DNA from: Escherichia phage SP22
Strand: one strand, 5' to 3'
Sequence record: LC519489.1
Length of the DNA stretch: 64,000 bases
A model generated the notes under the pieces. It did not search any database and was not told where the DNA came from. It saw only the letters and a list, made by a program, of their open reading frames with translations. The translations under genes and the position numbers were made by a program. How positions within the stretch are numbered: position 1 is the first letter of the stretch; the number at the start of each line of letters is the position of its first letter. Below, one piece after another: positions 1 to 9,166 of this stretch.

Positions 1-93
1 CTCCTTTGTAGAACAAGGCAGACCTACAGCTTTAAGTAAGATGGTACAGTAATCCATACAACAAGTCAAGAACTATTGCAAGTTAAAAAAGTT

Positions 94-118
94 GTTGACA
101 AAGTACTTGACAAGGTGT
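94..118 (+). promoter_or_regulatory. Conserved 25-nt element GTTGACAAaGTACTTGACAAGGTGT (two tandem TTGACAA half-sites); candidate early promoter/operator
   Basis: Near-identical copy (24/25) at 42283-42307 at the head of the other plus-strand early block; -10 hexamers downstream are weak and not conserved. Confidence 0.4.
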
Positions 119-154
119 AGGCTTATAAATACTTAGAAGATAACTTAAAAGGTT

Positions 155-225
155 CCTCTAAAAAGGCTATTTAAACAGATATCTTTCTGGATATCTATCT
201 TTTATCTTAAAAGCCTTTTAAGAGG
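155..225. repeat. Nested inverted repeats upstream of first ORF (outer 13-bp arms 155-167/213-225, inner AGATATC/GATATCT 177-183/190-196)
   Basis: Arms reverse-complementary by eye (outer 12/13, inner 7/7). Confidence 0.45.
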
Positions 226-244
226 TCTTATAAGAGGCATACCA

Positions 245-616
245 ATGAAAAACAGAACAAACAAAGGCCAGTTTAAAAAAGGCCAGTCTGGAAACCCATC
301 TGGAAGACCAAAAGGCTCTCGTAACAAAAGCTCACTTGTAAAAGCTCAACTGACCATTGATAATTCTGCTGAGTTTGCTGCAAAACTGTTTGAGGCGATT
401 GTTACAAGGGACGCTGCTAAGCTTGCAGAGTTCGGGTTAAACACTGACGACGTAACCATCAAGAGCATGATTGAGGTCGGTAAAACTATCATGACTCACT
501 CAGCAGGTGAGATGAAAGCAATTGCAGCAGACACTAAGAAAACCCCTGATAACGGCGGTCAACCTCAGACAGATAACAAACCAACGTTCTCTGCTGTAGC
601 GACTCTCAAAAAATAA
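245..616 (+). CDS. DUF5681-like hypothetical protein
   Basis: N-terminal KGQSGNPSGRPKG motif recalled as DUF5681 signature; ORF track. Confidence 0.45.
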   Translation: MKNRTNKGQFKKGQSGNPSGRPKGSRNKSSLVKAQLTIDNSAEFAAKLFEAIVTRDAAKLAEFGLNTDDVTIKSMIEVGKTIMTHSAGEMKAIAADTKKTPDNGGQPQTDNKPTFSAVATLKK

Positions 617-696
617 TTTTAAAAGGTGTTGACAGACTCTACAAAGTTGTTCTAAAGTCTGTCACATCAAACAACAATGAGAGAAGAGAGTAAAAT

Positions 697-2112
697 ATGA
701 GCAAGTTATTTAAACATGCGCACCTTCATGCAGGTCGAACTGAAAATGGTGCTGTAAACCATACTTCATCAATGTCTGCTCTGGTAGACTTCTACAAAGC
801 CGCTGGCTCAAGCCGTAGCAATGTAGAAATCTTACCAGACCTGTTCTACAAAGCTTTGCGTGAGGATGTTGATGTTGCAGTTCGTATTTTGCTTCACATG
901 CGAGATGTACGAGAAGGTATGGGTGAGCGTAAAGCCTTCAGAACTGTTTTACTTCAAGCAATCGAAGATAAAGTTTTAGAGCCTACACAGGTTCTTCGTA
1001 TTATGGATAAGATTGCAGAACTTGGTCGTTTTGATGACTTCAAAATCTTCGTAGGTACTCGTTTTGAGACAGATGCCTTCAAACATTTAGAAGCAGCATT
1101 ACTAGACCCTGAAACAGCAGGTTTAGCAGCCAAGTGGTTACCACGAGTAAAACCACGACACAAACAGTTTGTAAAACGTTTCTGCAAGTTTGCTAACTTA
1201 AGTGAGAAAGAGTACCGCACACTGTTGTCTGCACTTTCTGATACGGTTGAGCAAAAAATCTCTGCTAATGAGTTCGGTAAGATTGACTACAGCAAGATTC
1301 CTTCACTCGCTGCTGCACGTTACCAAAAACTCTTTAACCGTAAAGATGGAGAACGCTACAAAGCTTACATTGAGTCCTTATCAAAAGGTGAGACTAAGAT
1401 TAACGCTGGTGCTGTTTACCCATACGATGTGATTAAATCTATCAAGTATGGTAATGCAGATGTTGCTAATGAGCAGTGGAAAGCACTACCAAACTGGATG
1501 GCAGAGGGTGAAAACATCTTGTGTATGACTGATGTCTCAAGCTCGATGTCTTGGGTAAATCTTGGTTCAATCACTGCTCTTGATATTGGTGTATCTCTTG
1601 CCTTGTATGTAGCAGAACGCAACACAGGATGCTTTAAGGACGAGTTAATGGTCTATTCAACAAACCCTCATTTCATTGAACTGAGTGGTGATTTGAAAAA
1701 CCGTCATCGTCAGGTGATGCGTCATGTTGAATATGGCTCAACTAACTTACAAGCAGCTTTTGACCGTATTCTTGAGACAGGTAAGAGAAACAACTTGACT
1801 CAGAAAGATATGCCAAGTAAGCTTATCATCTTCTCTGATATGGAGTTCAATCAGGTTGATGGTGCAAATGGTCGTACAAACTTTGAAGAAATTCGCAGTA
1901 AGTACAAAAAAGCTGGATATGAGATGCCACAACTGGTATTCTGGTACTTAGCAAACCGTAATGGTACTTGCGAAGTGTCTGTTAAGGATAACGGTGTAGC
2001 AATGGTATCAGGGTTCTCTCCAGCCACTTTAAAAGCTCTGCTTGGTGGTGAGAAGTTTGACCCAATCAGCGTAATGCTCAAAGCAGTAATGATTGACCGT
2101 TACATCTGGTAA
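697..2112 (+). CDS. vWA-domain protein with alpha-helical N-terminal region (DUF2828/TROVE-like)
   Basis: MIDAS-type DVSSSMS motif and LIIFSDMEF strand in C-terminal half; RDVREGMGER motif N-terminal; 471 aa. Confidence 0.5.
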   Translation: MSKLFKHAHLHAGRTENGAVNHTSSMSALVDFYKAAGSSRSNVEILPDLFYKALREDVDVAVRILLHMRDVREGMGERKAFRTVLLQAIEDKVLEPTQVLRIMDKIAELGRFDDFKIFVGTRFETDAFKHLEAALLDPETAGLAAKWLPRVKPRHKQFVKRFCKFANLSEKEYRTLLSALSDTVEQKISANEFGKIDYSKIPSLAAARYQKLFNRKDGERYKAYIESLSKGETKINAGAVYPYDVIKSIKYGNADVANEQWKALPNWMAEGENILCMTDVSSSMSWVNLGSITALDIGVSLALYVAERNTGCFKDELMVYSTNPHFIELSGDLKNRHRQVMRHVEYGSTNLQAAFDRILETGKRNNLTQKDMPSKLIIFSDMEFNQVDGANGRTNFEEIRSKYKKAGYEMPQLVFWYLANRNGTCEVSVKDNGVAMVSGFSPATLKALLGGEKFDPISVMLKAVMIDRYIW

Positions 2113-2130
2113 AAAGTTTTAAAAAGGGTA

Positions 2131-2159
2131 TTGACAATGTGTTTAATACCCTTTAATAT
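2131..2159 (+). promoter_or_regulatory. Sigma70-like promoter TTGACA-N17-TAATAT heading the tRNA array, embedded in hairpin AGGGTATT/AATACCCT (2124-2151)
   Basis: Hexamers and 17-nt spacing read directly; flanking 8-bp inverted repeat. Confidence 0.4.
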
Positions 2160-2382
2160 GTTCTACATAGAAACGAAATGAGAGCTTTTCTAAGATACTG
2201 AAAAATATTTTAAAAAAGTTCTTGACAACTACTAAAAAATAATGTTAAAGTGGTTACATAGAGTTTGAAAATGACAGTACTGACCGGAACATCGAAAGAT
2301 GGGTACTGCGCCGGGGTTTTACACCCTCCCAGCCTGAGAGCGGGATAACCAAAGGAAAGACCGAATTTATTAAAAAGTTTAT

Positions 2383-2459
2383 CTCTGTTTAGCTCAGCTT
2401 GGTAGAGCGTTCCGTTTGGGGCGGTAAGGCCGGAGGTTCAAGTCCTCCAACAGAGACCA
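2383..2459 (+). tRNA. tRNA-Pro(TGG)
   Basis: Acceptor ctctgtt/aacagag, D-arm AGCTCAGCTTGGTAGAGC, anticodon loop TTTGGGG, T-loop TTCAAGT, CCA encoded. Confidence 0.7.
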
Positions 2460-2466
2460 AATTAAT

Positions 2467-2544
2467 GTTCCAGTAGACAAAATGGTAAAGTCACCACTCT
2501 TTCAAAGTGGATATTTGAGGGTTCAAATCCCTTCTGGAACGCCA
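2467..2544 (+). tRNA. tRNA-Glu(TTC)
   Basis: Acceptor gttccag/ctggaac, anticodon stem ccact/agtgg, loop CTTTCAA, T-loop TTCAAAT, CCA encoded. Confidence 0.7.
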
Positions 2545-2635
2545 GTTTTGACAGAAGACCAATTACAGCAAACTTAATCTTATTCATCTGAAGGTAAATC
2601 GGACAAAGAAGAGATTTGGTTTGGTCATTAAGAAT

Positions 2636-2712
2636 TGCGGGTATAGAGAAAGGGCGTCTCACATGTCTCATTAGCATGGTATCGGCAGGTTCGACTCCTG
2701 CACCCGCCTCCA
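2636..2712 (+). tRNA. tRNA-Met(CAT) type, with U1-C72 mismatch or extra nucleotide before the D-stem
   Basis: Anticodon stem catgt/gcatg, loop CTCATTA, D-stem gaga/tctc, T-arm gcagg-TTCGACT-cctgc, CCA encoded; acceptor register ambiguous. Confidence 0.6.
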
Positions 2713-2789
2713 ATTTTGCAGAAGACCGTATTCAGCAACAAAATACTTTTTGCGGATAAAAGAAAAAACACGGTCTGGCAATGTATTAA

Positions 2790-2866
2790 GGTTAGGAAGC
2801 ACATAAGGTATGTGCGGTCGCCTGTTAAGCGAATGGCACAGGGTTCGAATCCCTGACTAACCGCCA
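2790..2866 (+). tRNA. tRNA-Asn(GTT)
   Basis: Acceptor ggttagg/actaacc, anticodon loop CTGTTAA, T-arm caggg-TTCGAAT-ccctg, CCA encoded. Confidence 0.7.
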
Positions 2867-2935
2867 AATTTAGGAGAGAAGCGATTGCTCACCGATTTGT
2901 AAGGTGCAAGTCCTTAGCCTGAATAGAAATTAAAT

Positions 2936-3023
2936 GTGTCGTTATCCCGTAGATGGTAGCGGTGGGGACTGTAAATCCCTTGTCATTGAGACTCGGTAGG
3001 TTCGACTCCTACACGGCACACCA
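2936..3023 (+). tRNA. tRNA-Tyr(GTA), type II (long variable arm)
   Basis: Acceptor gtgtcgt/acggcac, anticodon stem gggga/tccct, loop CTGTAAA, about 15-nt variable arm, T-loop TTCGACT, CCA encoded. Confidence 0.65.
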
Positions 3024-3029
3024 AATAAA

Positions 3030-3106
3030 GGTTATGTAGTTTAACTGGTTAAAATACTCCCCTGTCACGGGAGATGATGAGGGTTCAAATCCCTTCGTAA
3101 CCGCCA
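3030..3106 (+). tRNA. tRNA-Asp(GTC)
   Basis: Acceptor ggttatg/cgtaacc, D-stem gttt/aaat, anticodon stem ctccc/gggag, loop CTGTCAC, T-loop TTCAAAT, CCA encoded. Confidence 0.75.
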
Positions 3107-3318
3107 AATTATAATAAGTATTTCAAAATGATGTTTTGAGAGGGCTATTTAGCCCCTCCCTTAAAGAGTTCTTACGAGTATTCTTTAAAGGAGCAGAAGA
3201 CCAAATTCAGCAAGTACGTATGAAATTTTCAAGCCAATTTAATTTTGAAAAAATTTAAAACTTGGTCTGGCTCAACAAATTTACAGAAGACCGTTTACAG
3301 CAAACTTTAAACAATCTA

Positions 3319-3392
3319 TTTCTCCGGTAAAGAAAAGGCGAAGGTTCGATTCCTTCACTCGGCAGATGTCGAGTTGGTGTAATGGTAGCACT
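3319..3392 (+). tRNA. Circularly permuted tRNA-Thr(GGT)-like locus: 3' portion (anticodon arm, T-arm, acceptor 3' strand; 3319-3364) lies upstream of 5' portion (acceptor 5' strand, D-arm; 3368-3392)
   Basis: Anticodon arm tttct-CCGGTAA-agaaa, T-arm gaagg-TTCGATT-ccttc, 3' strand actcggc, linker, 5' strand gtcgagt (7/7 pairs incl. one G-U), D-arm gtgt-AATGGTA-gcac; no partner halves in the conventional order nearby. Confidence 0.35.
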
Positions 3393-3564
3393 TAAGATGA
3401 TAAACAACGGTCTGGTAATTATCTTTGTAGATAAGTTATTAAGCTTACCTGTGAGTATGCGACCACAAAGGGTGAAATGGTAAATTCTAGATTTAAACCC
3501 AACAATGCACATCGCTACAGACCTTAAGCAAGTCTGGGTAGCTTATCTACAAAGATAATTTAAT

Positions 3565-3640
3565 GGAAGTGTAGCAGAATGGTGATGCGGCAGACTTTTA
3601 ATCTGACAGGCGATGGGTTCGAATCCCTCCACTTCTACCA
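3565..3640 (+). tRNA. tRNA-Lys(TTT)
   Basis: Acceptor ggaagtg/cacttct, anticodon loop CTTTTAA, T-loop TTCGAAT, CCA encoded; T-stem has a bulge (gatggg/ccctc), shared with the Lys(CTT) paralogue. Confidence 0.65.
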
Positions 3641-3644
3641 ATAT

Positions 3645-3721
3645 GGTTCAGTCGCAGATAAGGTAATGCAGGGGTTTCATAAGCCCTATGAATGTGGGTT
3701 CGATTCCCATCTGAACCTCCA
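3645..3721 (+). tRNA. tRNA-Met(CAT) type (elongator Met or Ile2 not distinguishable)
   Basis: Acceptor ggttcag/ctgaacc, anticodon stem ggggt/gccct, loop TTCATAA, T-arm gtggg-TTCGATT-cccat, CCA encoded. Confidence 0.7.
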
Positions 3722-3722
3722 A

Positions 3723-3798
3723 GCTGGTATAGTTAAGAAGGTTATAACACTCCCCTGATAAGGGAACATCGGTGGTTCGATTCCACCTACCAGTACCA
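3723..3798 (+). tRNA. tRNA-Ile(GAT)
   Basis: Acceptor gctggta/taccagt, D-stem gtta/taac, anticodon loop CTGATAA, T-arm ggtgg-TTCGATT-ccacc, CCA encoded. Confidence 0.75.
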
Positions 3799-3813
3799 AT
3801 TTCAATAAAGTTG

Positions 3814-3842
3814 TTGACATTGAGATGTGACTACTTTATAGT
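3814..3842 (+). promoter_or_regulatory. Sigma70-like promoter TTGACA-N17-TATAGT inside the tRNA array
   Basis: Hexamers and spacing read directly; followed by about 290 nt with no tRNA or ORF. Confidence 0.5.
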
Positions 3843-4136
3843 AACTGAAAATGATTCAGCATATGTATAATTCAAACACCAATACATGAGCGTTAGACGT
3901 AACACAATGTGGGGAAATTTGTTGTACATATTCTGAATAGTTTTCGTTGCGTAGCGTCTATTTTGCAAATTTAAAATAAATGCAAACGACAATGTTTTTC
4001 TGGCAGTAGCTTGATAGGCTAAACACCAGTGAGGTCTTCCAATCCCTCATCAAAGAATTTGGCGTACTCGCCCACGGTATGATTAATAAGGTGGGCATCT
4101 TTAAGGGCTTTCTAAGAGAGTCTTTAAAGATAATTA

Positions 4137-4218
4137 CGGGGCGTATCTCAGCGGTCTTCTAAACCGCCGTTAACCGAGTAAGTGGAGTATGCGGGTTCGA
4201 GTCCTGCCGCCTCGACCA
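4137..4218 (+). tRNA. Atypical tRNA-like gene, anticodon TCT (Arg), no recognisable D-arm and a 23-nt extra region; possible pseudo-tRNA
   Basis: Acceptor cggggcg/cgcctcg, perfect hairpin gcggt-CTTCTAA-accgc, T-arm gcggg-TTCGAGT-cctgc, CCA encoded; only 7 nt between acceptor and anticodon stem. Confidence 0.35.
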
Positions 4219-4232
4219 ATTTTGGAGAAATC

Positions 4233-4580
4233 ATGAAAACTTGTATTAGGTGCAAACTTAGCAAGGATGAAAATGATTTCTACATGAAAGATGGTAAGAG
4301 AACTCATTCATACTGTAAAAAGTGTGTTAATGAGCAAACCATAGAAAGACAAAGAGCACTTAAACTTTCAGCTATTGAGTACAAAGGTGGGGTTTGTCAT
4401 GATTGTGGTAAAAGGTATCATCCAGCAGTGTATGACTTCCATCATTTGAATCCTTCAGAGAAAGATTTTAACATTGGTCATAGAAAAAGTCTGAAGTTCT
4501 CTCAAGAACTAAAAGATGAACTTGACAAATGTGTTTTGCTATGTTCAAATTGCCATAGGGTAAGACATGCAAAGTATTAG
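4233..4580 (+). CDS. HNH homing endonuclease
   Basis: HNH motifs (YDFHHLNPSEKDFNIGH ... LLCSNCHRVRH); start placed at ATG after GGAG; upstream extension in the ORF track overlaps the tRNA-like gene. Confidence 0.7.
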   Translation: MKTCIRCKLSKDENDFYMKDGKRTHSYCKKCVNEQTIERQRALKLSAIEYKGGVCHDCGKRYHPAVYDFHHLNPSEKDFNIGHRKSLKFSQELKDELDKCVLLCSNCHRVRHAKY

Positions 4581-4717
4581 TTAGCAGATTGCTTAGACGA
4601 CCTTATCGGGTCTCCGTGTAAGGAGGTGGTCTGTATCTCATGTTTTCCAGAACATGTAAATAATCTGAGAAGGGGCTTTACAGTGTTGCGAAAATACGGT
4701 AAGCTTCGAATTACAAT

Positions 4718-4800
4718 ATGGGACGATGTTAAGACTCTAAGGCATGAGCAACGGCCTCCAAAACCGTTTCAAAGGGGTTCAACTCCTCCGTCCCATGCCA
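4718..4800 (+). tRNA. tRNA-Trp(CCA)-like with a 7-nt insertion between acceptor and D-arm
   Basis: Acceptor atgggac/gtcccat (7/7), D-arm ctc-TAAGGCAT-gag, anticodon loop CTCCAAA, T-loop TTCAACT, CCA encoded; would complete the 20-amino-acid set. Confidence 0.45.
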
Positions 4801-4813
4801 AAGTCTTATTAGG

Positions 4814-4901
4814 GGTAGGTAGCGGCTAATGGCAGCCAAACAGTCTTGAAAACTGTTGCCACTGTAGAGATACGGTGAGGGTTCGACTCCTTTACTTACC
4901 G
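4814..4901 (+). tRNA. tRNA-Ser(TGA), type II
   Basis: Acceptor ggtaggt/acttacc, D-arm ggc-TAATGGCA-gcc, anticodon stem acagt/actgt, loop CTTGAAA, long variable arm, T-loop TTCGACT; CCA not encoded. Confidence 0.65.
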
Positions 4902-5057
4902 CCTAATAAGATTTATACCGTCCATGCTTGCTCGCATTTTCGGTTTATCCTCGTGTATTGGTTGTACACACTGATAAAGCACCTAGTAGGTGTCACGGAG
5001 AAGAGATAATATCAAGCTCTCCAAAGGTTCTAGTCACCGGATTAAACAAGACTATGC

Positions 5058-5079
5058 AAAGACCAAATTAGGTCTTTTT
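5058..5079 (+). terminator. Weak rho-independent terminator-like hairpin (AAAGACC/GGTCTTT + T-run)
   Basis: Inverted repeat and T-tract read directly; AT-rich stem. Confidence 0.3.
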
Positions 5080-5171
5080 AGAGGGCTTCTAAGGTTATTA
5101 CAGCTTGTTGTGGAACCTTGTTGCTTAGGTTCTTAGAAGTTCTCTAAAAAGATTTAATGGGAGATTGACAC

Positions 5172-5624
5172 ATGGCACGTAGCAGTTTGACTAAAGATAT
5201 TCTTGAACCTTTAGTAAAGGATTCAGTATCATTCAGAGAAGTACTTATTAAGCTTGGGAGAAAACCAGCAGGTGGTTCTCAGTCACATCTAAAGCGTGTT
5301 ATAGAGAAGTTTGAAATAGACACTTCTCATTTCCTCGGACAAAAGGCTGGTAAGGTTAAAACTGTACCAAAAAGAAAGCCTGAAGAAATACTAATTCTGC
5401 GTGAATCTGGTGAAAGAGCTAGGTCTTCACAACTAAGAAGAGCTTTAATAGCCTCTGGTGTCGAATACAAATGCTCTAAATGTGGTCAGTTACCGTATTG
5501 GTTGGGTAACCCTCTAACTCTTGATGTTGACCACATTAACGAGAACTGGTTAGATGATAGAAAAGAGAATCTTCGGTTCTTGTGTCCAAATTGCCACAGT
5601 CAATTCTCAAGACATTTGATTTAA
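5172..5624 (+). CDS. HNH homing endonuclease
   Basis: HNH motif LDVDHINENWLDDRKENLRFLCPNCH; GGGAG RBS upstream. Confidence 0.7.
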   Translation: MARSSLTKDILEPLVKDSVSFREVLIKLGRKPAGGSQSHLKRVIEKFEIDTSHFLGQKAGKVKTVPKRKPEEILILRESGERARSSQLRRALIASGVEYKCSKCGQLPYWLGNPLTLDVDHINENWLDDRKENLRFLCPNCHSQFSRHLI

Positions 5625-5625
5625 T

Positions 5626-5702
5626 GCACCTATAGCCCAACTGGTAGAGGCAGCAGACTTAGAATCTGCTCAGTGTGAGTTCGAATCTCTCTAGGTGTAC
5701 CA
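5626..5702 (+). tRNA. tRNA-Leu(TAG) by anticodon, type I length (short variable arm)
   Basis: Acceptor gcaccta/taggtgt, anticodon stem gcaga/tctgc, loop CTTAGAA, 5-nt variable region, T-loop TTCGAAT, CCA encoded. Confidence 0.6.
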
Positions 5703-5709
5703 AATTAAT

Positions 5710-5785
5710 GCAGGTGTAGCAAAATGGTTATGCGGCTGACTCTTAATCAGTAAGACGATGGGTTCAATTCCCTCCACCTGTACCA
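5710..5785 (+). tRNA. tRNA-Lys(CTT)
   Basis: Acceptor gcaggtg/cacctgt, anticodon stem ctga/tcag, loop CTCTTAA, T-loop TTCAATT, CCA encoded. Confidence 0.65.
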
Positions 5786-5791
5786 AACATT

Positions 5792-5867
5792 GGGGATGTA
5801 GTTTACATGGTTAAAACATAAGTTTTGCAAACTTAAGTACAGGGTTCAATTCCCTGCTTCTCCACCA
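5792..5867 (+). tRNA. tRNA-Ala(TGC)
   Basis: G3-U70 wobble pair present (Ala identity element), D-stem gttt/aaac, anticodon stem taagt/actta, loop TTTGCAA, T-arm caggg-TTCAATT-ccctg, CCA encoded. Confidence 0.75.
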
Positions 5868-5873
5868 ATTAGT

Positions 5874-5948
5874 GCATCCATAGTTTAAACGGGAAAATTA
5901 CAGTCTTCCAAACTGAGGTTGAGGGTTCGATTCCCTCTGGATGCTCCA
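5874..5948 (+). tRNA. tRNA-Gly(TCC)
   Basis: Acceptor gcatcca/tggatgc, anticodon loop CTTCCAA, T-arm gaggg-TTCGATT-ccctc, CCA encoded. Confidence 0.75.
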
Positions 5949-5962
5949 AATTAAGGTGTGAT

Positions 5963-6376
5963 ATGAAAATATGTAGTACTTGCAGAATACCAAAAGATGA
6001 AAGCTTATTCCATAAGAATAAGAACAAGAAAGATGGTCTTCAAAGTCAATGCAAAGACTGTGCAAGACTTCGTGATGCAAAGAGTTATCAAGCAAATGAT
6101 AAAAGGAAAGAGGCTATCAAAAGCACTCGTAACTTCAAGAGGGAGTATAATAAAACTCTAGCTAGAAGGTACAAAGCTTTATGCAAATGTCATATATGTG
6201 GTGAGAAAGAACCAGCTGCACTGGATTTACACCATACAGACCCTTCCCAGAAAGATTTGAATCCTGCATCACTTTATTCATACTCCACAAAAAGATTAAA
6301 AGATGAAATCAGAAAGTGTATCGTCTTGTGTGCTAACTGTCACAGAAAAGTACACGCTGGTATCATACAAGTTTAA
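5963..6376 (+). CDS. HNH homing endonuclease
   Basis: HNH motifs LDLHHTDPSQKDLNPA ... VLCANCHRKVH; Cys-rich N-terminus. Confidence 0.7.
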   Translation: MKICSTCRIPKDESLFHKNKNKKDGLQSQCKDCARLRDAKSYQANDKRKEAIKSTRNFKREYNKTLARRYKALCKCHICGEKEPAALDLHHTDPSQKDLNPASLYSYSTKRLKDEIRKCIVLCANCHRKVHAGIIQV

Positions 6377-6377
6377 T

Positions 6378-6454
6378 GCTGCTTTCGTATAATTGGCTAT
6401 TACACATCCCTTGTAAGGATGGAAATGCAGGTTCGAGTCCTGTGAGCAGCACCA
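6378..6454 (+). tRNA. tRNA-Thr(TGT)
   Basis: Acceptor gctgctt/gagcagc, anticodon stem catcc/ggatg, loop CTTGTAA, T-arm gcagg-TTCGAGT-cctgt, CCA encoded. Confidence 0.75.
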
Positions 6455-6550
6455 ATTTAGAGGTCAAGTGAAAGACCGCTTTGAGTCAACTGAAGACCGT
6501 AACAAATCCCACGGAGTTGAGTTAGCGGCACAACTTCAGACCTCTTTCAT

Positions 6551-6625
6551 ACTCGCTTAGTTTATATGGTAAAACATCACCCTTACAAGATGAAGAAAAA
6601 GGTTCAAGTCCTTTAGTGAGTACCA
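6551..6625 (+). tRNA. tRNA-Val(TAC)
   Basis: Acceptor actcgct/agtgagt, D-arm gttt-ATATGGTA-aaac, anticodon loop CTTACAA, T-arm aaagg-TTCAAGT-ccttt, CCA encoded. Confidence 0.7.
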
Positions 6626-6626
6626 T

Positions 6627-6704
6627 GTTCCAGTATCCCAATTGGCAGAGGATGCAAGCTCAAACCTTGTACTAGTGACGGTTCGAATCCGTCTTGGAAC
6701 ACCA
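6627..6704 (+). tRNA. tRNA-Leu(CAA) by anticodon, short variable arm
   Basis: Acceptor gttccag/ttggaac, anticodon stem gcaag/cttgt, loop CTCAAAC, 6-nt variable region, T-arm gacgg-TTCGAAT-ccgtc, CCA encoded. Confidence 0.6.
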
Positions 6705-6709
6705 ATTTT

Positions 6710-6785
6710 GCAGGATTAGTTCAAATGGATAGAGCAACAGTCTACGAAGCTGTTAATAGGGGTTCGAATCCCTTATCCTGCGCCA
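6710..6785 (+). tRNA. tRNA-Arg(ACG)
   Basis: Acceptor gcaggat/atcctgc, D-arm gttc-AAATGGATA-gagc, anticodon loop CTACGAA, T-loop TTCGAAT, CCA encoded. Confidence 0.75.
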
Positions 6786-6804
6786 ATTTAAAGAGGCTAT
6801 TTAG

Positions 6805-7362
6805 ATGAGATATTTGAAGTATGCTTCATGGATTTTCTTAGCTTTGTTAGAACCATTTGCAGCAATCTTAGCAGTTATCTTAGCACCTTTCGTAGTCCCA
6901 TTCTACAGTGAGAAGAAAGGACACTTACCTTTCGGCTTCAGATGGATGGAGACATATGACAACCCAATTGATGGTGATAAAGGGCATGTCGAACGATGGG
7001 CTAAGATTAGAAAGATTGGCAAGCTTGGTGTCTATATGCAGAGAGTCGGTTGGCTCTGGAGAAACAAAGCTTATAACTTCTCTTACCATGTGTTAGGAAG
7101 AGATGTAAAAGATGTTACTAAGTGGAAAGGCAATATCAACGTAAGTTCTAACCCTGAAGATAATCAGACAGGTTATCTCCTAATGTGGAACAGCAATGCT
7201 TGGGGATTATTCGCTTTTATCCCATCAATTAAAGTCTTTGGTAAACAATTTTACTGGAGAATTTATATTGGGTGGAAGCTAAAAAGTGTTGTCCCAGAAG
7301 AAAGAGCATTCTCAAGGGAAAGAGTTATGTTGGCATTCTTTATTCATCCACTAAGAAAGTAA
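6805..7362 (+). CDS. Hypothetical membrane protein (N-terminal hydrophobic segment, Trp-rich)
   Basis: ORF track; AGAGG RBS upstream; no motif recognised. Confidence 0.5.
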   Translation: MRYLKYASWIFLALLEPFAAILAVILAPFVVPFYSEKKGHLPFGFRWMETYDNPIDGDKGHVERWAKIRKIGKLGVYMQRVGWLWRNKAYNFSYHVLGRDVKDVTKWKGNINVSSNPEDNQTGYLLMWNSNAWGLFAFIPSIKVFGKQFYWRIYIGWKLKSVVPEERAFSRERVMLAFFIHPLRK

Positions 7363-7370
7363 AGATTTAA

Positions 7371-7446
7371 AGGGGATTAGTTTACAAGGTTAAAACCTCG
7401 GTCTTTGAAATCGAAGAAGTTGGTTCAATTCCAACATCCCCCGCCA
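7371..7446 (+). tRNA. tRNA-Gln(TTG)
   Basis: Acceptor aggggat/atccccc with unpaired A1-C72 (weak 1-72 pair is typical of tRNA-Gln), anticodon loop CTTTGAA, T-arm gttgg-TTCAATT-ccaac, CCA encoded. Confidence 0.7.
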
Positions 7447-7448
7447 AT

Positions 7449-7527
7449 GCTCCATTACTCCAATTGGCAGAGAGGCCAGACTTAAAATCTGTGTTATGTA
7501 TCGGTTCGAATCCGATATGGAGTACCA
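7449..7527 (+). tRNA. tRNA-Leu(TAA) by anticodon, short variable arm
   Basis: Acceptor gctccat/atggagt, anticodon stem caga/tctg, loop CTTAAAA, about 8-nt variable region, T-arm atcgg-TTCGAAT-ccgat, CCA encoded. Confidence 0.6.
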
Positions 7528-7532
7528 AATTT

Positions 7533-7608
7533 AGCGGTATAGCATAACTGGCAATGCAGCAGTCTCTGAAGCTGTCTTATTAAGGTTCAAATCCTTATGC
7601 CGCTGCCA
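7533..7608 (+). tRNA. tRNA-Gln(CTG)
   Basis: Acceptor agcggta/tgccgct (A1-U72), anticodon loop CTCTGAA, T-arm taagg-TTCAAAT-cctta, CCA encoded. Confidence 0.7.
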
Positions 7609-7639
7609 CTTCTAAGGGTTCTTACGAGAGTCCTTAAAT

Positions 7640-7715
7640 GTGGCCTTATCATAAATGGTAATGACCCATGCTGTGAACATGGTCTATACGGGTTCAAATC
7701 CCGTAGGTCACCCCA
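7640..7715 (+). tRNA. tRNA-His(GTG)
   Basis: Acceptor gtggcct/aggtcac, D-arm tcat-AAATGGTA-atga, anticodon stem ccatg/catgg, loop CTGTGAA, T-arm acggg-TTCAAAT-cccgt, CCA encoded; no G at -1. Confidence 0.75.
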
Positions 7716-7720
7716 ATTTA

Positions 7721-7797
7721 TAGTCCAAGTAGCTTATATGGTTAAAGCGCGTGTCTGAAAAACATGAGAAGAGGGTTCAAATCCCACTGGACTACCA
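7721..7797 (+). tRNA. tRNA-Phe(GAA)
   Basis: Acceptor tagtcca/tggacta, D-arm gctt-ATATGGTTA-aagc, anticodon stem cgtgt/acatg, loop CTGAAAA, T-loop TTCAAAT; two extra nt at the acceptor/D junction. Confidence 0.65.
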
Positions 7798-7813
7798 ATT
7801 TCAAAGGTGCTTA

Positions 7814-8548
7814 ATGAAAGAGATGACAGAACAAGGTAAGGAGATTTTTAATCTCTTAAAAACCGGTAAAGGGTTTTCTAATCCCCTTATTACTGGTGCA
7901 GCAGTTCTCGGTGGAACCGTAGCTGCCTCTACATCACTTGTAAGCTCTATTAGCTCTGTAACAGACCCTACAATAAAAGATAAGCTTGTTGCTGCTGGAC
8001 TTACAACAGTCCTGCTTAACAGCTTTACAACGAGTCTGACAAGCACTACATCAACTACCAAAACACTGACAGATTACGGTCAAAAATCTATTGATGAGTT
8101 TTCATCACGTATGCAGGTAGCAAAAGGCTATTCTAATGTTATGGGTGCAGCAGGAGAGCAGGTTGGTTGTACACCATTTAGTGGTATTATGGGTGTTGCT
8201 ACAGAGTATGGTCAAAAAGCTATTGACACGATTAACAGTGCACTAGATGGTGTTAATGATGTATTAAGTGACTTACAAGATGCTATTGACAAAGGTCTTG
8301 ATACTATTTCTGATTTAGCTAACCAAGCTGTTAGTAAGATTAATGAAGGTATTTCGAAGATTACAGCTTATGCAGATGAAGTTGTGCAGATGATTGAAGA
8401 AGAAGCTGCTCTTATTGCAGAGTACCTTAAAACGAATATCAATGGGTTCTTAGCAGGTATCTTACCAGACTGGTTTGATGATGCTTGTAAAACTGGTGTA
8501 ATTGATACTATTGCAACACCAGAAATGAAGAACGCATTACAGAAATAA
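7814..8548 (+). CDS. Hypothetical protein (Ser/Thr-rich N-terminal region)
   Basis: ORF track entry 7751-8548 overlaps tRNA-Phe; start moved to ATG after AAGGTG. Confidence 0.5.
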   Translation: MKEMTEQGKEIFNLLKTGKGFSNPLITGAAVLGGTVAASTSLVSSISSVTDPTIKDKLVAAGLTTVLLNSFTTSLTSTTSTTKTLTDYGQKSIDEFSSRMQVAKGYSNVMGAAGEQVGCTPFSGIMGVATEYGQKAIDTINSALDGVNDVLSDLQDAIDKGLDTISDLANQAVSKINEGISKITAYADEVVQMIEEEAALIAEYLKTNINGFLAGILPDWFDDACKTGVIDTIATPEMKNALQK

Positions 8549-8549
8549 T

Positions 8550-8642
8550 GGAAGATTAACCCTAAAAGGTAAGGGAGCAGTTTGCTAAACTGCCAGTAGC
8601 TGAGAAATCGGTGTACCAGTTCAAGTCTGGTATCTTCCTCCA
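8550..8642 (+). tRNA. tRNA-Ser(GCT), type II
   Basis: Acceptor ggaagat/atcttcc, D-stem ccc/ggg, anticodon stem gcagt/actgc, loop TTGCTAA, long variable arm, T-arm accag-TTCAAGT-ctggt, CCA encoded. Confidence 0.7.
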
Positions 8643-8646
8643 ATTT

Positions 8647-8722
8647 GAATCCGTGACAGAAATGGTTATGTGCCTGTCTGCAAAACAGGTTTATAAGGGT
8701 TCGAGTCCCTTCGGATTCTCCA
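8647..8722 (+). tRNA. tRNA-Cys(GCA)
   Basis: Acceptor gaatccg/cggattc, anticodon stem cctgt/acagg, loop CTGCAAA, T-arm aaggg-TTCGAGT-ccctt, CCA encoded. Confidence 0.75.
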
Positions 8723-8884
8723 AGTTATTTTACTCTCTCTCAATTAAAATAATAATAATGCCCTGCTATAAGTATTCTTCCTTTCGCTACCGAAGAGTAT
8801 TTTTAGACAGGGCTTTTTTACAGAGTTATACTTTATAAGAAGACTTATACAGTATGTCTCTGACGTACATTGTGGTTTCTCCTT

Positions 8885-8908
8885 GACGGTCTCTGTACCG
8901 TCTTTTTT
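8885..8908 (+). terminator. Rho-independent terminator (GACGGT-ctctgt-ACCGTC + T6) closing the tRNA array
   Basis: Perfect 6-bp stem and T-run read directly; a second GC hairpin + T-run at about 8760-8819. Confidence 0.6.
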
Positions 8909-8944
8909 AAGGGGAAACATGGTTAACTATTTGGAGAAAACATA

Positions 8945-9145
8945 ATGAGCGAGACCGTTTATAAAGAACTTTACGAAGCTAACAAGAAGCTAGAATTTAT
9001 GCAGAACACTATCATGGCAATTGCAGACAGATTATCTGTAGCAACAGGTATTGATATTCAAGAAGCGTCTATGGATGCACTTCTTGATGCTGTTGATGCA
9101 AAGTTCGAAGTTAAGAAAGAAGAGACTGCTACAGACTCTGAATAA
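8945..9145 (+). CDS. Small hypothetical protein preceding terminase
   Basis: ORF track; position only. Confidence 0.4.
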   Translation: MSETVYKELYEANKKLEFMQNTIMAIADRLSVATGIDIQEASMDALLDAVDAKFEVKKEETATDSE

Positions 9146-9166
9146 TTCTATTTGCGGAGGTGCTTA

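What the first reader, a model, noticed from the sequence alone, without database searches (positions are those of the whole stretch)
697..2112. vWA-domain protein with helical N-terminal region directly upstream of the tRNA array
The 471-aa ORF combines an alpha-helical N-terminal region with a C-terminal von Willebrand A domain bearing a MIDAS DxSxS motif, an architecture reminiscent of TROVE/Ro60-type RNA-binding proteins that partner with tRNA-like Y RNAs. Its position next to the tRNA array, which contains several non-canonical tRNA-like elements and unexplained structured spacers, raises the possibility of a linked RNA-protein module.
Basis: inference. Interest (0 to 1): 0.55.

Follow-up and report, generated by a model that had tools for sequence, protein, structure and literature searches.

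The report
Phage Ro60-like protein with Y-like RNAs
This Felix-O1-type phage gene encodes a protein with the ring-plus-vWA fold of the RNA-binding autoantigen Ro60, and next to it, hidden in the tRNA array, are four copies of a conserved, apparently undescribed small RNA (one is a circularly permuted tRNA look-alike) that travels with this protein family in well over a hundred unrelated phage and prophage loci.

Summary
ORF 697..2112 encodes 471 aa with a helical N-terminal part, a C-terminal vWA domain and a complete MIDAS, 270 nt upstream of a 25-tRNA array. The window is a Felixounavirus.

It is 99% identical to Bas63 gp130. A 2024 preprint showed that gp130 counters the Ppl defence, and speculated that neighbouring 'tRNAs' might be Y RNAs.

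New here are the candidate RNAs themselves:
- Three short elements (2553-2625, 2720-2780, 3195-3272) share a covarying 7-bp helix followed by UU(A/C)CAGCAA.
- One long element (3285-3417) adds a T arm, a closed acceptor hairpin and a D arm, the architecture of bacterial YrlA Y RNAs.

Covariance models find this RNA next to the gene, always on its strand, in 53 of 89 diverse phage loci and 44 of 80 held-out loci. A T5-like control gave none. Rfam has no such family, and the canonical GNCGAA Ro60-binding motif is absent.

Verdict: a new variant of the Ro60/Y-RNA system. Binding is inferred, not shown.

The parts
629..658 (+). sigma-70-like promoter (TTGACA-18-TAAAGT) upstream of the gene
   Evidence: Consensus scan, 10/12 match. 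This is a pattern match only, not evidence of function.
697..2112 (+). Ro60-fold protein gene (471 aa), DUF2828+DUF7788 family, PHROG 850. Ortholog of FelixO1 ORF42 and Bas63 gp130.
697..1491 (+). N-terminal helical (TROVE-like by fold) region, residues 1 to about 265, with invariant basic/acidic cluster R69 D70 R72 G74 G76 E77 R78
1504..2109 (+). C-terminal vWA domain with complete MIDAS: D279 (1531-1533), S281, S283 (1543-1545), T349 (1741-1743), D381 (1837-1839)
   Evidence: Pfam DUF7788. 31/48 members hit VWA_2 and 11/48 hit vWA_Ro60 weakly. Invariant MIDAS residues.
2131..2251 (+). two sigma-70-like promoters (2131-2159, 2222-2251) heading the tRNA/RNA array
   Evidence: Consensus scan. 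Both are conserved in FelixO1, Bas63 and two metagenomic relatives.
2553..2625 (+). short Y-like RNA element c1: helix 2556-2562/2616-2622, motif UUACAGCAA 2563-2571; lies between tRNA-Glu and tRNA-Met
   Evidence: R2 31.7 bits, E 0.0024. Coordinates. Conserved in relatives; the window's C-to-U change turns a G-C pair into G.U.
2720..2780 (+). short Y-like RNA element c2: helix 2723-2729/2770-2776, motif AUUCAGCAA 2730-2738; lies between tRNA-Met and tRNA-Asn
   Evidence: R2 42.4 bits, E 9e-6. Two divergent alleles among Felixounaviruses keep the helix and motif while the interior differs.
3195..3272 (+). short Y-like RNA element c3: helix 3198-3204/3262-3268, motif AUUCAGCAA 3205-3213
   Evidence: R2 32.2 bits, E 0.0019. 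Coordinates.
3285..3417 (+). long YrlA-like RNA c4: closing helix 3288-3295/3406-3413, UACAGCAA 3296-3303, V hairpin 3319-3335, T arm 3340-3356 (loop UUCGAUU), closed 7-bp acceptor-like hairpin 3357-3374, D arm 3377-3391 (loop AAUGGUA)
   Evidence: The MFE fold gives exactly this structure. Found by the structural scanner. R1 90.7 bits, E 2.6e-14. Not called by ARAGORN; Rfam tRNA scores 24.7 bits, below the 29-bit gathering score.
2383..8722 (+). array of 25 canonical tRNA genes interspersed with HNH endonuclease ORFs (context)
   Evidence: ARAGORN. Rfam. FelixO1 annotation.

Best explanation
The gene encodes a phage member of a large family (Pfam DUF2828+DUF7788) that has the Ro60 architecture: a helical TROVE-like part closed by a vWA/MIDAS domain. 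I propose that it forms a ribonucleoprotein with small RNAs encoded beside it.

In this phage the RNAs are four elements in the spacers of the tRNA array. They are transcribed from the array's early sigma-70-type promoters and are presumably released by tRNA processing. Each has a 7-8-bp terminal helix followed immediately by single-stranded UU(A/C)CAGCAA. This is the conserved, probably protein-bound module. One element (3285-3417) also carries a circularly permuted tRNA-like body, as in bacterial YrlA Y RNAs, which could recruit tRNA-binding factors.

By analogy with Ro60/Y RNA, the RNAs would gate or tether the protein to RNA-processing or RNA-degrading enzymes. The biological output is protection of the infection. 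The 99%-identical Bas63 gp130 counters the Ppl defence system.

Status of each step:
- Shown here: the fold, the RNA structures with their covariation, and the genomic linkage.
- Shown in the literature: the anti-Ppl phenotype.
- Inferred: protein-RNA binding, processing of the RNAs, and how the ribonucleoprotein relates to Ppl.
For: Protein
- The MIDAS residues are invariant.

RNA
- A structural scanner found 33 permuted tRNA-like domains on the gene strand and 0 on the other strand.
- Closing helices average 8.4 bp for cognate pairings against 5.5 bp for non-cognate ones.
- Long-form alignment: 93% of cells paired against 59% in shuffles, 136 against 43 double-sided changes, 0/500 shuffles as high.
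- Short-form helix: 89% against 59%, 0/500.

Linkage
- R1 gave 147 hits and R2 gave 81 hits, all on the gene strand.
- 53/89 diverse loci have an element, 46 of them within 500 nt. 70/97 hits fall in the 11% of flank within 500 nt of the gene.
- Held-out set of 80 loci: 65 R2 hits and 31 R1 hits, all same strand. 44/80 loci are positive, and 48/62 hits lie within 500 nt.
- Reverse test: of 26 loci found from an RNA pattern alone and confirmed by R2, 14 have the gene in the stored block, 14/14 on the same strand. This compares with 3/54 for pattern matches rejected by R2 and 1/55 for a mis-spaced control pattern.
- Controls: no R2 hit in a 41-kb T5-like tRNA region or in the ET08 canonical-Ro60 locus. 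In the 64-kb window there are hits only at the four elements.

Context and function
- RNA ligases (RtcB, Rnl) and a CCA-adding enzyme lie near homologs.
- Deleting gp130 cripples Bas63 on Ppl, and the gene is transferable to T7 (PMC11482910). gp130 is 99% identical to the window protein.
Against: - No binding data exist for any member of this family.
- gp130 alone, from a plasmid or inserted in T7, rescues T7 on Ppl. The anti-Ppl activity therefore does not need the phage RNAs.
- The canonical Ro60-binding motif GNCGAAN0-1G is absent from the elements, and there is no detectable TROVE sequence signature. The analogy rests on fold and gene-RNA linkage.
- About 40% of loci show no element at the thresholds used.
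- In many loci the element sits in the gene's own 5' leader, which also fits a cis-regulatory role.
- T, acceptor and D pairing in the first alignment was imposed by my scanner. R2's training set came from R1 hits. Only the held-out and reverse tests are free of that circularity.
Confidence: 0.68

Rival explanations
1. The RNA elements are cis-acting regulatory or processing signals, not trans-acting Y-like RNAs. Examples would be translational operators through which the protein autoregulates its mRNA, or RNase processing or stability determinants of the gene/tRNA transcripts.
For: In the held-out set the nearest element is upstream of the gene in 39 of 43 cases where it lies outside the gene, often within 0-150 nt. 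Some minimal copies end just before the ribosome-binding site, for example L025 1761-1798, L054, L072 and L078.
Against: - In this window the four copies lie 440-1300 nt downstream of the gene, beyond two strong promoters and between tRNAs. They cannot control the gene's translation from there.
- Long forms carry a complete tRNA-like body with canonical T and D loops, typical of stable trans-acting RNAs.
- Some contigs have 4 dispersed copies.
- This reading still implies that the protein binds the RNA.
Confidence: 0.15
2. The protein works purely by protein-protein contact, for example its vWA/MIDAS face sequestering Ppl or another host factor. The neighbouring RNAs would be an independent tRNA-related function, such as decoys for tRNA-targeting defences, that merely share the early 'tRNA module' of the genome.
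For: - gp130 alone protects T7, which has no such RNAs, from Ppl.
- MIDAS sites classically mediate protein binding, and the nearest non-Ro60 folds are Midasin and integrin-type vWA domains.
Against: - The RNA is linked to the gene also in loci with no tRNA at all, within tens of nucleotides and always on the same strand.
- The RNA pattern predicts the gene in the reverse test.
- A tRNA-rich T5-like region without the gene has no element.
Confidence: 0.12
3. It is a virion structural vWA protein with no RNA role. This is the refutation scenario named by the first reader.
For: The homolog CBB_183 was detected in purified CBB virions, with 8 unique peptides and 23.6% coverage (PMC5259590). It is annotated 'structural protein' in KU574722.
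Against: - The whole protein has the Ro60 fold, not just a vWA domain.
- The linked RNA family is conserved.
- The gene sits in the early/tRNA region behind a sigma-70-like promoter, not in the structural module.
- Deleting Bas63 gene 130 severely reduced plaque size on the Ppl-bearing host, and complementation reversed this.
- Packaging of an early-acting factor is compatible with the main explanation.
Confidence: 0.04

Closest known systems
Ro60 (TROVE + vWA) with bacterial and phage Y RNAs of the YrlA type (Chen et al. 2014, PMC4201824; phage phiLo Ro60, PMC12135203)
   Same: - Complete MIDAS.
- A small RNA encoded within a few hundred nucleotides to 4 kb on the same strand.
- The long RNA has T arm, then closed acceptor-like stem, then U-N linker, then D arm, with YUAY (UUAC) opening the variable region and the RNA ends pairing.
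- My model R1 detects the ET08 YrlA next to its canonical Ro60 (37.9 bits).
- Shorter partner RNAs without a tRNA-like body exist, as YrlB does in Salmonella.
   Different: - No TROVE sequence signature. The helical part is about 265 aa, against about 360 aa in Ro60.
- The RNAs lack GNCGAAN0-1G and the long outer stem seen in ET08. They have instead a 7-8-bp helix plus UU(A/C)CAGCAA, and R2 finds none in the ET08 locus.
- In this phage the RNAs are embedded in a tRNA array.
- A CCA-ending, non-permuted topology also occurs.
- The family is found in 709 phage records across Gram-negative and Gram-positive hosts, against 358 mostly actinophage records for canonical Ro60.
Bas63 gp130 (PhageMaP preprint, PMC11482910)
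   Same: 99% identical protein in the same genomic position. The authors noted the structural similarity to Ro60 and proposed that some neighbouring 'tRNA genes' may be Y RNAs. They showed that it counters Ppl.
   Different: That work did not identify any RNA. Here the candidates are not the annotated tRNAs but four spacer elements, members of a family conserved far beyond Felixounavirus.
Circularly permuted tRNA genes, and tRNA-like RNAs such as tmRNA
   Same: c4 is a permuted tRNA body with canonical T and D loops. Some relatives keep NCCA in the acceptor loop.
   Different: c4 has no anticodon loop and no CCA (acceptor loop AGAU). It is conserved as such across Felixounaviruses, so it is not a precursor of a decoding tRNA.

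Membership tests
Ro60 / TROVE proteins (Pfam PF05731 + PF25045) | TROVE-domain sequence signature | tested here: not met
   No PF05731 hit in any of 48 family members at E<=10. hhalign against ET08 gp220 (a true TROVE protein) aligns only 41 columns around the MIDAS, probability 54%. A profile search against PDB sequences gave only E 0.7-1.6 hits to Ro60.
Ro60 / TROVE proteins (Pfam PF05731 + PF25045) | Helical repeat domain plus vWA domain in the Ro60 arrangement (fold) | tested here: met
   [not shown]
Ro60 / TROVE proteins (Pfam PF05731 + PF25045) | vWA domain with MIDAS (DxSxS...T...D) | tested here: met
   D279, S281, S283, T349 and D381 are invariant in 48 sequences. 11/48 members hit vWA_Ro60 weakly.
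Ro60 / TROVE proteins (Pfam PF05731 + PF25045) | Binds Y RNA or misfolded RNA | not testable with these tools
   Only genomic linkage to a structured RNA could be shown.
DUF2828/DUF7788 family (PHROG 850, 'RNA-binding protein' / 'Ro-like RNA binding protein') | Matches to both Pfam models above gathering score, and full-length PHROG match | tested here: met
   PF11443 102 bits (cut-off 29). PF25043 146 bits (cut-off 27.1). phrog_850 E 4.7e-184 over 1-471.
YrlA-type bacterial Y RNA (Chen et al. 2014) | T stem-loop, then closed acceptor-like stem-loop, then D stem-loop, with tRNA-like conserved loop nucleotides | tested here: met
   c4: T arm 3340-3356 (loop UUCGAUU), 7-bp hairpin 3357-3374, D arm 3377-3391 (loop AAUGGUA). 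The linker is UG in the window and UA in most relatives.
YrlA-type bacterial Y RNA (Chen et al. 2014) | YUAY at the start of the variable region, after the stem that corresponds to the anticodon stem | tested here: met
   UUAC at 3295-3298 directly follows the helix. ET08's YrlA has GUCGG-UUAC at the same position. Many relatives have YUUY instead.
YrlA-type bacterial Y RNA (Chen et al. 2014) | GNCGAAN0-1G (putative Ro60-binding motif) in the 5' strand of the terminal stem | tested here: not met
   The 5' regions read (A/G)CAGAAGACCnn. The only GNCGAAG in c4 is inside the T stem and is not conserved in FelixO1. ET08 has GCCGAGAG in an outer stem.
YrlA-type bacterial Y RNA (Chen et al. 2014) | Encoded within 4 kb of the Ro60-type gene on the same strand | tested here: met
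   The elements lie 441-1173 nt downstream of the stop codon, on the same strand.
YrlA-type bacterial Y RNA (Chen et al. 2014) | Carries tRNA modifications (TruB, DusA) and is bound by the Ro60 ortholog | not testable with these tools
   Needs experiments.
Canonical tRNA | Cloverleaf with anticodon arm, recognised by tRNA finders | tested here: not met
   c1-c4 are not called by ARAGORN. The Rfam tRNA model gives 24.7 bits on 3300-3364, below the 29-bit gathering score.
Any Rfam 15 family | Match at or near gathering score | tested here: not met
   Window 1-9500 at E<=1. 27 homolog loci at gathering threshold gave only tRNAs and one tmRNA.

The most novel reading that the evidence does not exclude
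DUF2828-family proteins and the 'helix + UU(A/C)CAGCAA' RNAs form a second phage Ro60/Y-RNA-type ribonucleoprotein system, found in about twice as many phage records as the canonical one.

Its RNA comes in three interconvertible topologies:
- a minimal hairpin;
- a permuted tRNA mimic with closed acceptor;
- a CCA-ending tRNA-like RNA with the module inserted in the anticodon arm.

The system would be used by phages of Proteobacteria, Firmicutes, Actinobacteria and Campylobacterota as a general early counter-defence or RNA-protection device. The protein may even be carried in the virion.
Probability: 0.45. Interest if true: 0.82.

Novelty: new variant of a known kind. Interest (0 to 1): 0.7.

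Why it matters
Ro60/Y-RNA particles are conserved from bacteria to humans, yet what they do in bacteria and phages is still poorly understood. The protein studied here already has a clear phenotype: it defeats the Ppl defence and can be moved into T7. Its mechanism is unknown.

This work supplies a defined, conserved RNA partner candidate with a short sequence motif and a covarying helix, which makes the question directly testable by binding assays, mutants and structures. It also explains part of the 'junk' between phage tRNA genes. It suggests that a family annotated only as DUF2828 or 'RNA-binding protein' in hundreds of phages, including therapeutic Felixounaviruses, Listeria A511-like phages and Campylobacter, Vibrio and Staphylococcus phages, works as a ribonucleoprotein. 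Finally, it provides a candidate new RNA family for Rfam.

Tried and rejected
- phmmer of the protein against PDB sequences found nothing. The profile search gave only non-significant Ro60 hits. The case therefore rests on fold.
- Rfam at E<=1 gave a weak sraL hit at 2273-2394. That stretch is a 105-nt insertion present only in this phage and three Salmonella phages and has no significant fold (z about 0). It was rejected as a Y RNA candidate.
- The weak tmRNA-like hits at 3946-4218 were reinterpreted as a non-canonical tRNA-like gene.
- Counting the bare 9-mer WUWMCAGCA gave no strand enrichment (39 against 52), so it was dropped as evidence.
- A loose test for a 7-bp helix with G.U allowed within 180 nt was non-discriminating (26/56 in the control) and was discarded.
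- My first collection scan used a mis-spaced pattern (NNN instead of NN). I kept it as a chance-level control.
- The supplementary YrlA alignment of Chen et al. is not held, and the review PMC10870794 is not held. I used the ET08 locus as the published YrlA example instead.
No conclusion rests on that sequence itself.
- c4 as a precursor of a real tRNA was rejected: it has no anticodon loop and no CCA.
Full report
**1. What is there**

The window is a Felixounavirus genome segment. Megablast of 1-9000 gives 95-99% identity to 176 phage records, among them FelixO1. A 121-nt stretch (2252-2372) is 100% identical in Salmonella phage PK6.

ORF 697..2112 (+) encodes 471 aa. It corresponds to FelixO1 ORF42, which RefSeq annotates as 'RNA-binding protein'. 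It is preceded by a sigma-70-like promoter at 629-658. After its stop codon come two more such promoters (2131-2159 and 2222-2251), and then 25 tRNA genes on the same strand from 2383 to 8722, interspersed with HNH endonuclease ORFs.

**2. The protein**

The sequence matches Pfam DUF2828 in the N-terminal part and DUF7788 in the C-terminal part. It matches PHROG 850 'RNA-binding protein' over its full length.

The family is large. I found more than 2600 homologs and 709 phage records, spanning Escherichia, Salmonella, Mycobacterium, Vibrio, Listeria, Staphylococcus, Campylobacter, Enterococcus and Bacillus phages.

In an alignment of 48 diverse members, the MIDAS residues D279, S281, S283, T349 and D381 are invariant. 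So is an N-terminal cluster, R69 D70 R72 G74 G76 E77 R78.

Sequence methods do not connect the family to TROVE:
- There was no Pfam TROVE hit in any of the 48 members, although 11 hit vWA_Ro60 weakly.
- phmmer against PDB sequences found nothing.
- The family profile gives only E 0.7-1.6 hits. Four of those five hits are Ro60 proteins, aligned at the MIDAS.
- hhalign against a genuine phage Ro60 (ET08 gp220, which is TROVE + vWA_Ro60) aligns only the MIDAS stretch, with probability 54%.

The fold does connect it. The AlphaFold2 model is confident (pLDDT 90.2, pTM 0.89).
- Foldseek against the PDB returns eleven Ro60/TROVE chains first, as full-length alignments with E 1e-7 to 5e-6 and TM up to 0.66. 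Scores then drop sharply to isolated vWA domains.

The protein is therefore a Ro60-fold protein of a sequence family distinct from canonical TROVE. Canonical Ro60 is a separate phage family of 358 records, mostly actinophages such as ET08 and Bxz1. The roughly 70-78-kb mycobacteriophages whose 'Ro-like RNA binding protein' matched my query belong to the DUF2828 family.

**3. What was already known**

The PhageMaP preprint (PMC11482910) studied Bas63, a Felixounavirus. Its gene 130 lies directly upstream of tRNA-Pro, and its product is 99% identical to the window protein.

The authors reported that deleting g130 gives tiny plaques on a host carrying the Ppl defence, and that complementation rescues this. 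gp130 expressed from a plasmid, or inserted in T7, restores T7 growth on Ppl. They noted that gp130 resembles Ro60 structurally. They speculated that some of the downstream 'tRNA genes' might be Y RNAs.

No RNA partner had been identified. Searches for DUF2828, YrlA, Ro60 with phage, and Felixounavirus with tRNA-like found no description of one.

**4. The RNAs in the window**

The unexplained spacers of the array carry a repeated motif, CAGA-AGACCnn-(A/U)UU(A/C)CAGCAA ... nnGGUCU-GG. There are four copies, and the nn positions covary (AA/UU or GU/AC).

| Element | Span | Closing helix | Motif |
|---|---|---|---|
| c1 | 2553-2625 | 2556-2562 / 2616-2622 | 2563-2571 |
| c2 | 2720-2780 | 2723-2729 / 2770-2776 | 2730-2738 |
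| c3 | 3195-3272 | 3198-3204 / 3262-3268 | 3205-3213 |
| c4 | 3285-3417 | 3288-3295 / 3406-3413 | 3296-3303 |

The fourth copy encloses more. The MFE fold gives, in order:
- the closing helix;
- a small hairpin (3319-3335);
- a 5-bp T arm with the canonical loop UUCGAUU (3340-3356);
- a 7-bp hairpin closed by four nucleotides (3357-3374);
- a D arm with loop AAUGGUA (3377-3391);
- an A-rich linker, then the 3' strand of the helix.

This is a circularly permuted tRNA body, the architecture published for bacterial YrlA Y RNAs: T stem-loop, closed acceptor stem, U-N linker, D stem-loop, YUAY opening the variable region, and RNA ends paired (PMC4201824; bioRxiv 10.1101/312249).

All four elements are conserved in FelixO1, and in Bas63 as far as I fetched its sequence, and in metagenomic relatives. 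Where c2 exists as two divergent alleles, the helix and the motif are kept and the interior differs. The window's only change in the c1 helix turns a G-C pair into G.U.

**5. The same RNA accompanies the gene elsewhere**

I sampled 14 annotated phage loci of distant homologs and 80 IMG/VR loci. tRNAs flank the gene in about a third of these loci, always on the gene's strand and often within 1 kb.

A purpose-written scanner for 'T arm, closed acceptor hairpin, D arm' found 33 instances on the gene strand and none on the other strand. They include both mycobacteriophages, in the roughly 370-nt gap just after the 'Ro-like' gene, and Klebsiella phage FBKp34.

With flanks added, 17 of these show the same layout: a 7-10-bp terminal helix of different sequence in nearly every phage, followed immediately by (U)U(A/U)CAGCAA, with an A-rich linker before the 3' strand. 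Cognate helices average 8.4 bp, against 5.5 bp for non-cognate pairings.

On the MAFFT alignment of the 17, 93% of cells are paired, against 59% in shuffles and about 43% when the partner is slid. There are 136 double-sided changes against 43 in shuffles, and 0 of 500 shuffles reach the observed value. All eight closing-helix pairs covary. One caveat applies: T, acceptor and D pairing was a selection criterion of my scanner. The closing helix was not.

A covariance model (R1) then found 147 matches at E<=1 in the window plus 95 loci, every one on the gene's strand.
- They include strong new full-length hits directly beside the gene (L022, L026, L036, L040, L053).
- They also include many 40-85-nt matches that keep only the helix and the motif.

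These short forms read ..A-AGGAUnn-(U)U(A/U)CAGCAA-[A/U-rich interior]-AAA-nnAUCCU-G.. and lie 9-500 nt from the gene, also in loci that have no tRNA at all. Their 7-bp helix covaries as well: 89% paired against 59%, 97 against 29 double-sided changes, 0/500.

A second model (R2) gave 81 matches at E<=0.1, all on the gene strand. There were none in a 41-kb T5-like control region with 24 tRNAs. In the 64-kb window there were only c1, c2 and c3. On that control R1 reached at most 27 bits, against 57-103 bits for true long forms.

Overall, 53 of 89 diverse loci have an element, and 46 have one within 500 nt. Of the 97 hits, 70 lie in the 11% of flank bases within 500 nt of the gene.

**6. Tests free of training circularity**

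I fetched 80 further loci from bacterial genome assemblies, at 33-43% protein identity. None of their sequences was used to build the models.
- R2 gave 65 hits and R1 gave 31 hits, all on the gene strand.
- 44 of 80 loci were positive at E<=0.01, 37 of them within 500 nt.
- 48 of 62 hits fell in the 12.7% of flank within 500 nt, and most were upstream of the gene.

I also ran the test in reverse, scanning all viral contigs for the RNA pattern alone.
- AAGGATNNTTACAGCAAA gave 112 stretches, 80 of which were returned as loci.
- A mis-spaced control pattern (NNN) gave 55 stretches, and only 1 of the 55 had the gene.
- Among the 80 returned loci, 26 carry elements that R2 confirms.
- Of those 26, 14 have the gene inside the stored block, 14/14 on the same strand. 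The figure is 3/54 for the matches that R2 rejects.
- Several of the remaining 12 have the element at a block edge, and one is the same contig as L033, which does carry the gene.

**7. Relation to known Y RNAs**

Rfam 15 has no family matching these RNAs.

R1 does detect the YrlA-type RNA upstream of the canonical Ro60 of mycobacteriophage ET08 (L100 4171-4279, 37.9 bits), but only through the tRNA-like module. The helix and motif positions are deleted in that alignment.

The ET08 RNA has the canonical outer stem (GGGGAGGCAG...CUGCCUCCCC), a GNCGAA-like GCCGAGAG, an inner stem GUCGG/CCGGU and then UUAC. R2 finds nothing in that locus.

The RNAs linked to DUF2828 genes therefore share YrlA's tRNA-like module and the YUAY position. 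They carry a different protein-proximal module, in line with their different protein partner.

A third topology exists as well. Three other phages have 111-121-nt tRNA-like genes with an encoded CCA, and their anticodon arm is replaced by a hairpin plus UAUUCAGCA or UUACAGCA (L014, L004, L006). If that hairpin loop is opened and the acceptor stem is closed, the result is exactly the permuted form. They appear to be circular permutations of one architecture.

**8. How it most likely works**

*Shown here:* the Ro60 fold with an intact MIDAS; a structured, covarying RNA family; and tight same-strand linkage of that RNA family to the gene.

*Shown by others:* the protein counters Ppl and improves T7 growth.

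*Inferred:*
- The protein binds the helix + CAGCAA module. Ro60 contacts mainly the 5' strand of a conserved Y RNA helix.
- The RNAs are made early from the array promoters and are released by tRNA processing.
- Like Y RNAs, they would gate the protein or tether it to other factors. The tRNA-like body is a likely handle for tRNA-binding enzymes.

The neighbourhoods of homologs contain RtcB, RNA ligases, a CCA-adding enzyme and ribosome hibernation factors. This fits an RNA repair or protection theme, as others have proposed for ROT/TROVE proteins of jumbo phages (PMC7824862). Phage phiLo Ro60 with its Yrl RNAs binds and attenuates host PNPase, which gives a concrete precedent.

Three points count against a simple picture:
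- gp130 alone suffices against Ppl in T7, so the phage RNAs are not required for that activity. They may regulate the protein, or serve another of its functions.
- Many elements lie in the gene's own leader, so autoregulation is a serious partial alternative.
- The CBB homolog is present in virions, so the protein may be delivered with the DNA.

**9. Verdict**

The protein-level idea is already published, with a phenotype. The RNA family and its linkage to the DUF2828 family appear to be undescribed. That makes this a new variant of the Ro60/Y-RNA kind, and one that can be tested directly.

Noticed in passing
window 2260-2364: A 105-nt insertion lies between the array promoter and tRNA-Pro. 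It is absent from FelixO1, Bas63 and two metagenomic relatives, and present only in Salmonella phages PK6, SPJ41 and SWJM-02. It contains a GAAA-tetraloop hairpin and gives a weak Rfam sraL match, but has no significant fold (z about 0).
   Followed up: partly
window 4137-4215 and 4717-4800: Two non-canonical tRNA-like genes that ARAGORN misses. Each has a 7-8-bp acceptor stem, a canonical T arm and an encoded CCA, with anticodon-like loops CUUCUAA (UCU) and CUCCAAA (CCA, Trp) and aberrant D regions. The first overlaps the mechanical GTG start (4182) of the HNH ORF, whose real start is probably the later ATG. It also explains the weak tmRNA-like Rfam hits.
   Followed up: partly
window 2867-2935 and 6455-6550: Two further array spacers fold better than shuffles (z -2.6 and -3.3). 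Neither RNA model matches them, and they remain unexplained.
   Followed up: no
L014 5895-6015 and 6025-6137; L004 6003-6113; L006 1494-1610: These are 111-121-nt tRNA-like genes with an encoded CCA. Their anticodon arm is replaced by a hairpin plus UAUUCAGCA or UUACAGCA. They appear to be the non-permuted topology of the same RNA family and could in principle be aminoacylated.
   Followed up: partly
L082 6792-6921, L069 6525-6639, L008 1389-1453, L014 6203-6264: In some long elements the loop closing the acceptor-like stem still reads N-CCA plus a short spacer. This suggests either an origin from tandem tRNAs or opening of the loop by RNase P/Z to give a two-piece tRNA-like RNA.
   Followed up: no
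L009 3938-5452 (Pectobacterium phage CBB gp183): This homolog was detected in purified virions by mass spectrometry, with 8 unique peptides and 23.6% coverage (PMC5259590). Members of the family may be packaged and injected.
   Followed up: partly
L310, L308, L250 (IMG/VR contigs): Up to four R2 elements are dispersed over about 9-10 kb on one strand of a single phage contig, so the RNA can be a multi-copy family within a genome.
   Followed up: no
L063 7619-8092: A phage-encoded tmRNA (Rfam 70.9 bits) lies 1.2 kb downstream of the homolog.
   Followed up: no
window 245-616: A DUF5681 ORF (123 aa, PHROG 4114) sits co-oriented immediately upstream of the Ro60-like gene, as in FelixO1 and Bas63. 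Its function is unknown, and I did not check whether it is linked to the gene outside Felixounavirus.
   Followed up: no
L013 6808-8019; L009 1940-3196 and 8914-9437; L006 9070-9353: RNA repair genes lie within a few kb of homologs in Listeria, Pectobacterium and Aeromonas phages: RtcB ('tRNA-splicing ligase'), RNA ligases and a CCA-adding enzyme.
   Followed up: no
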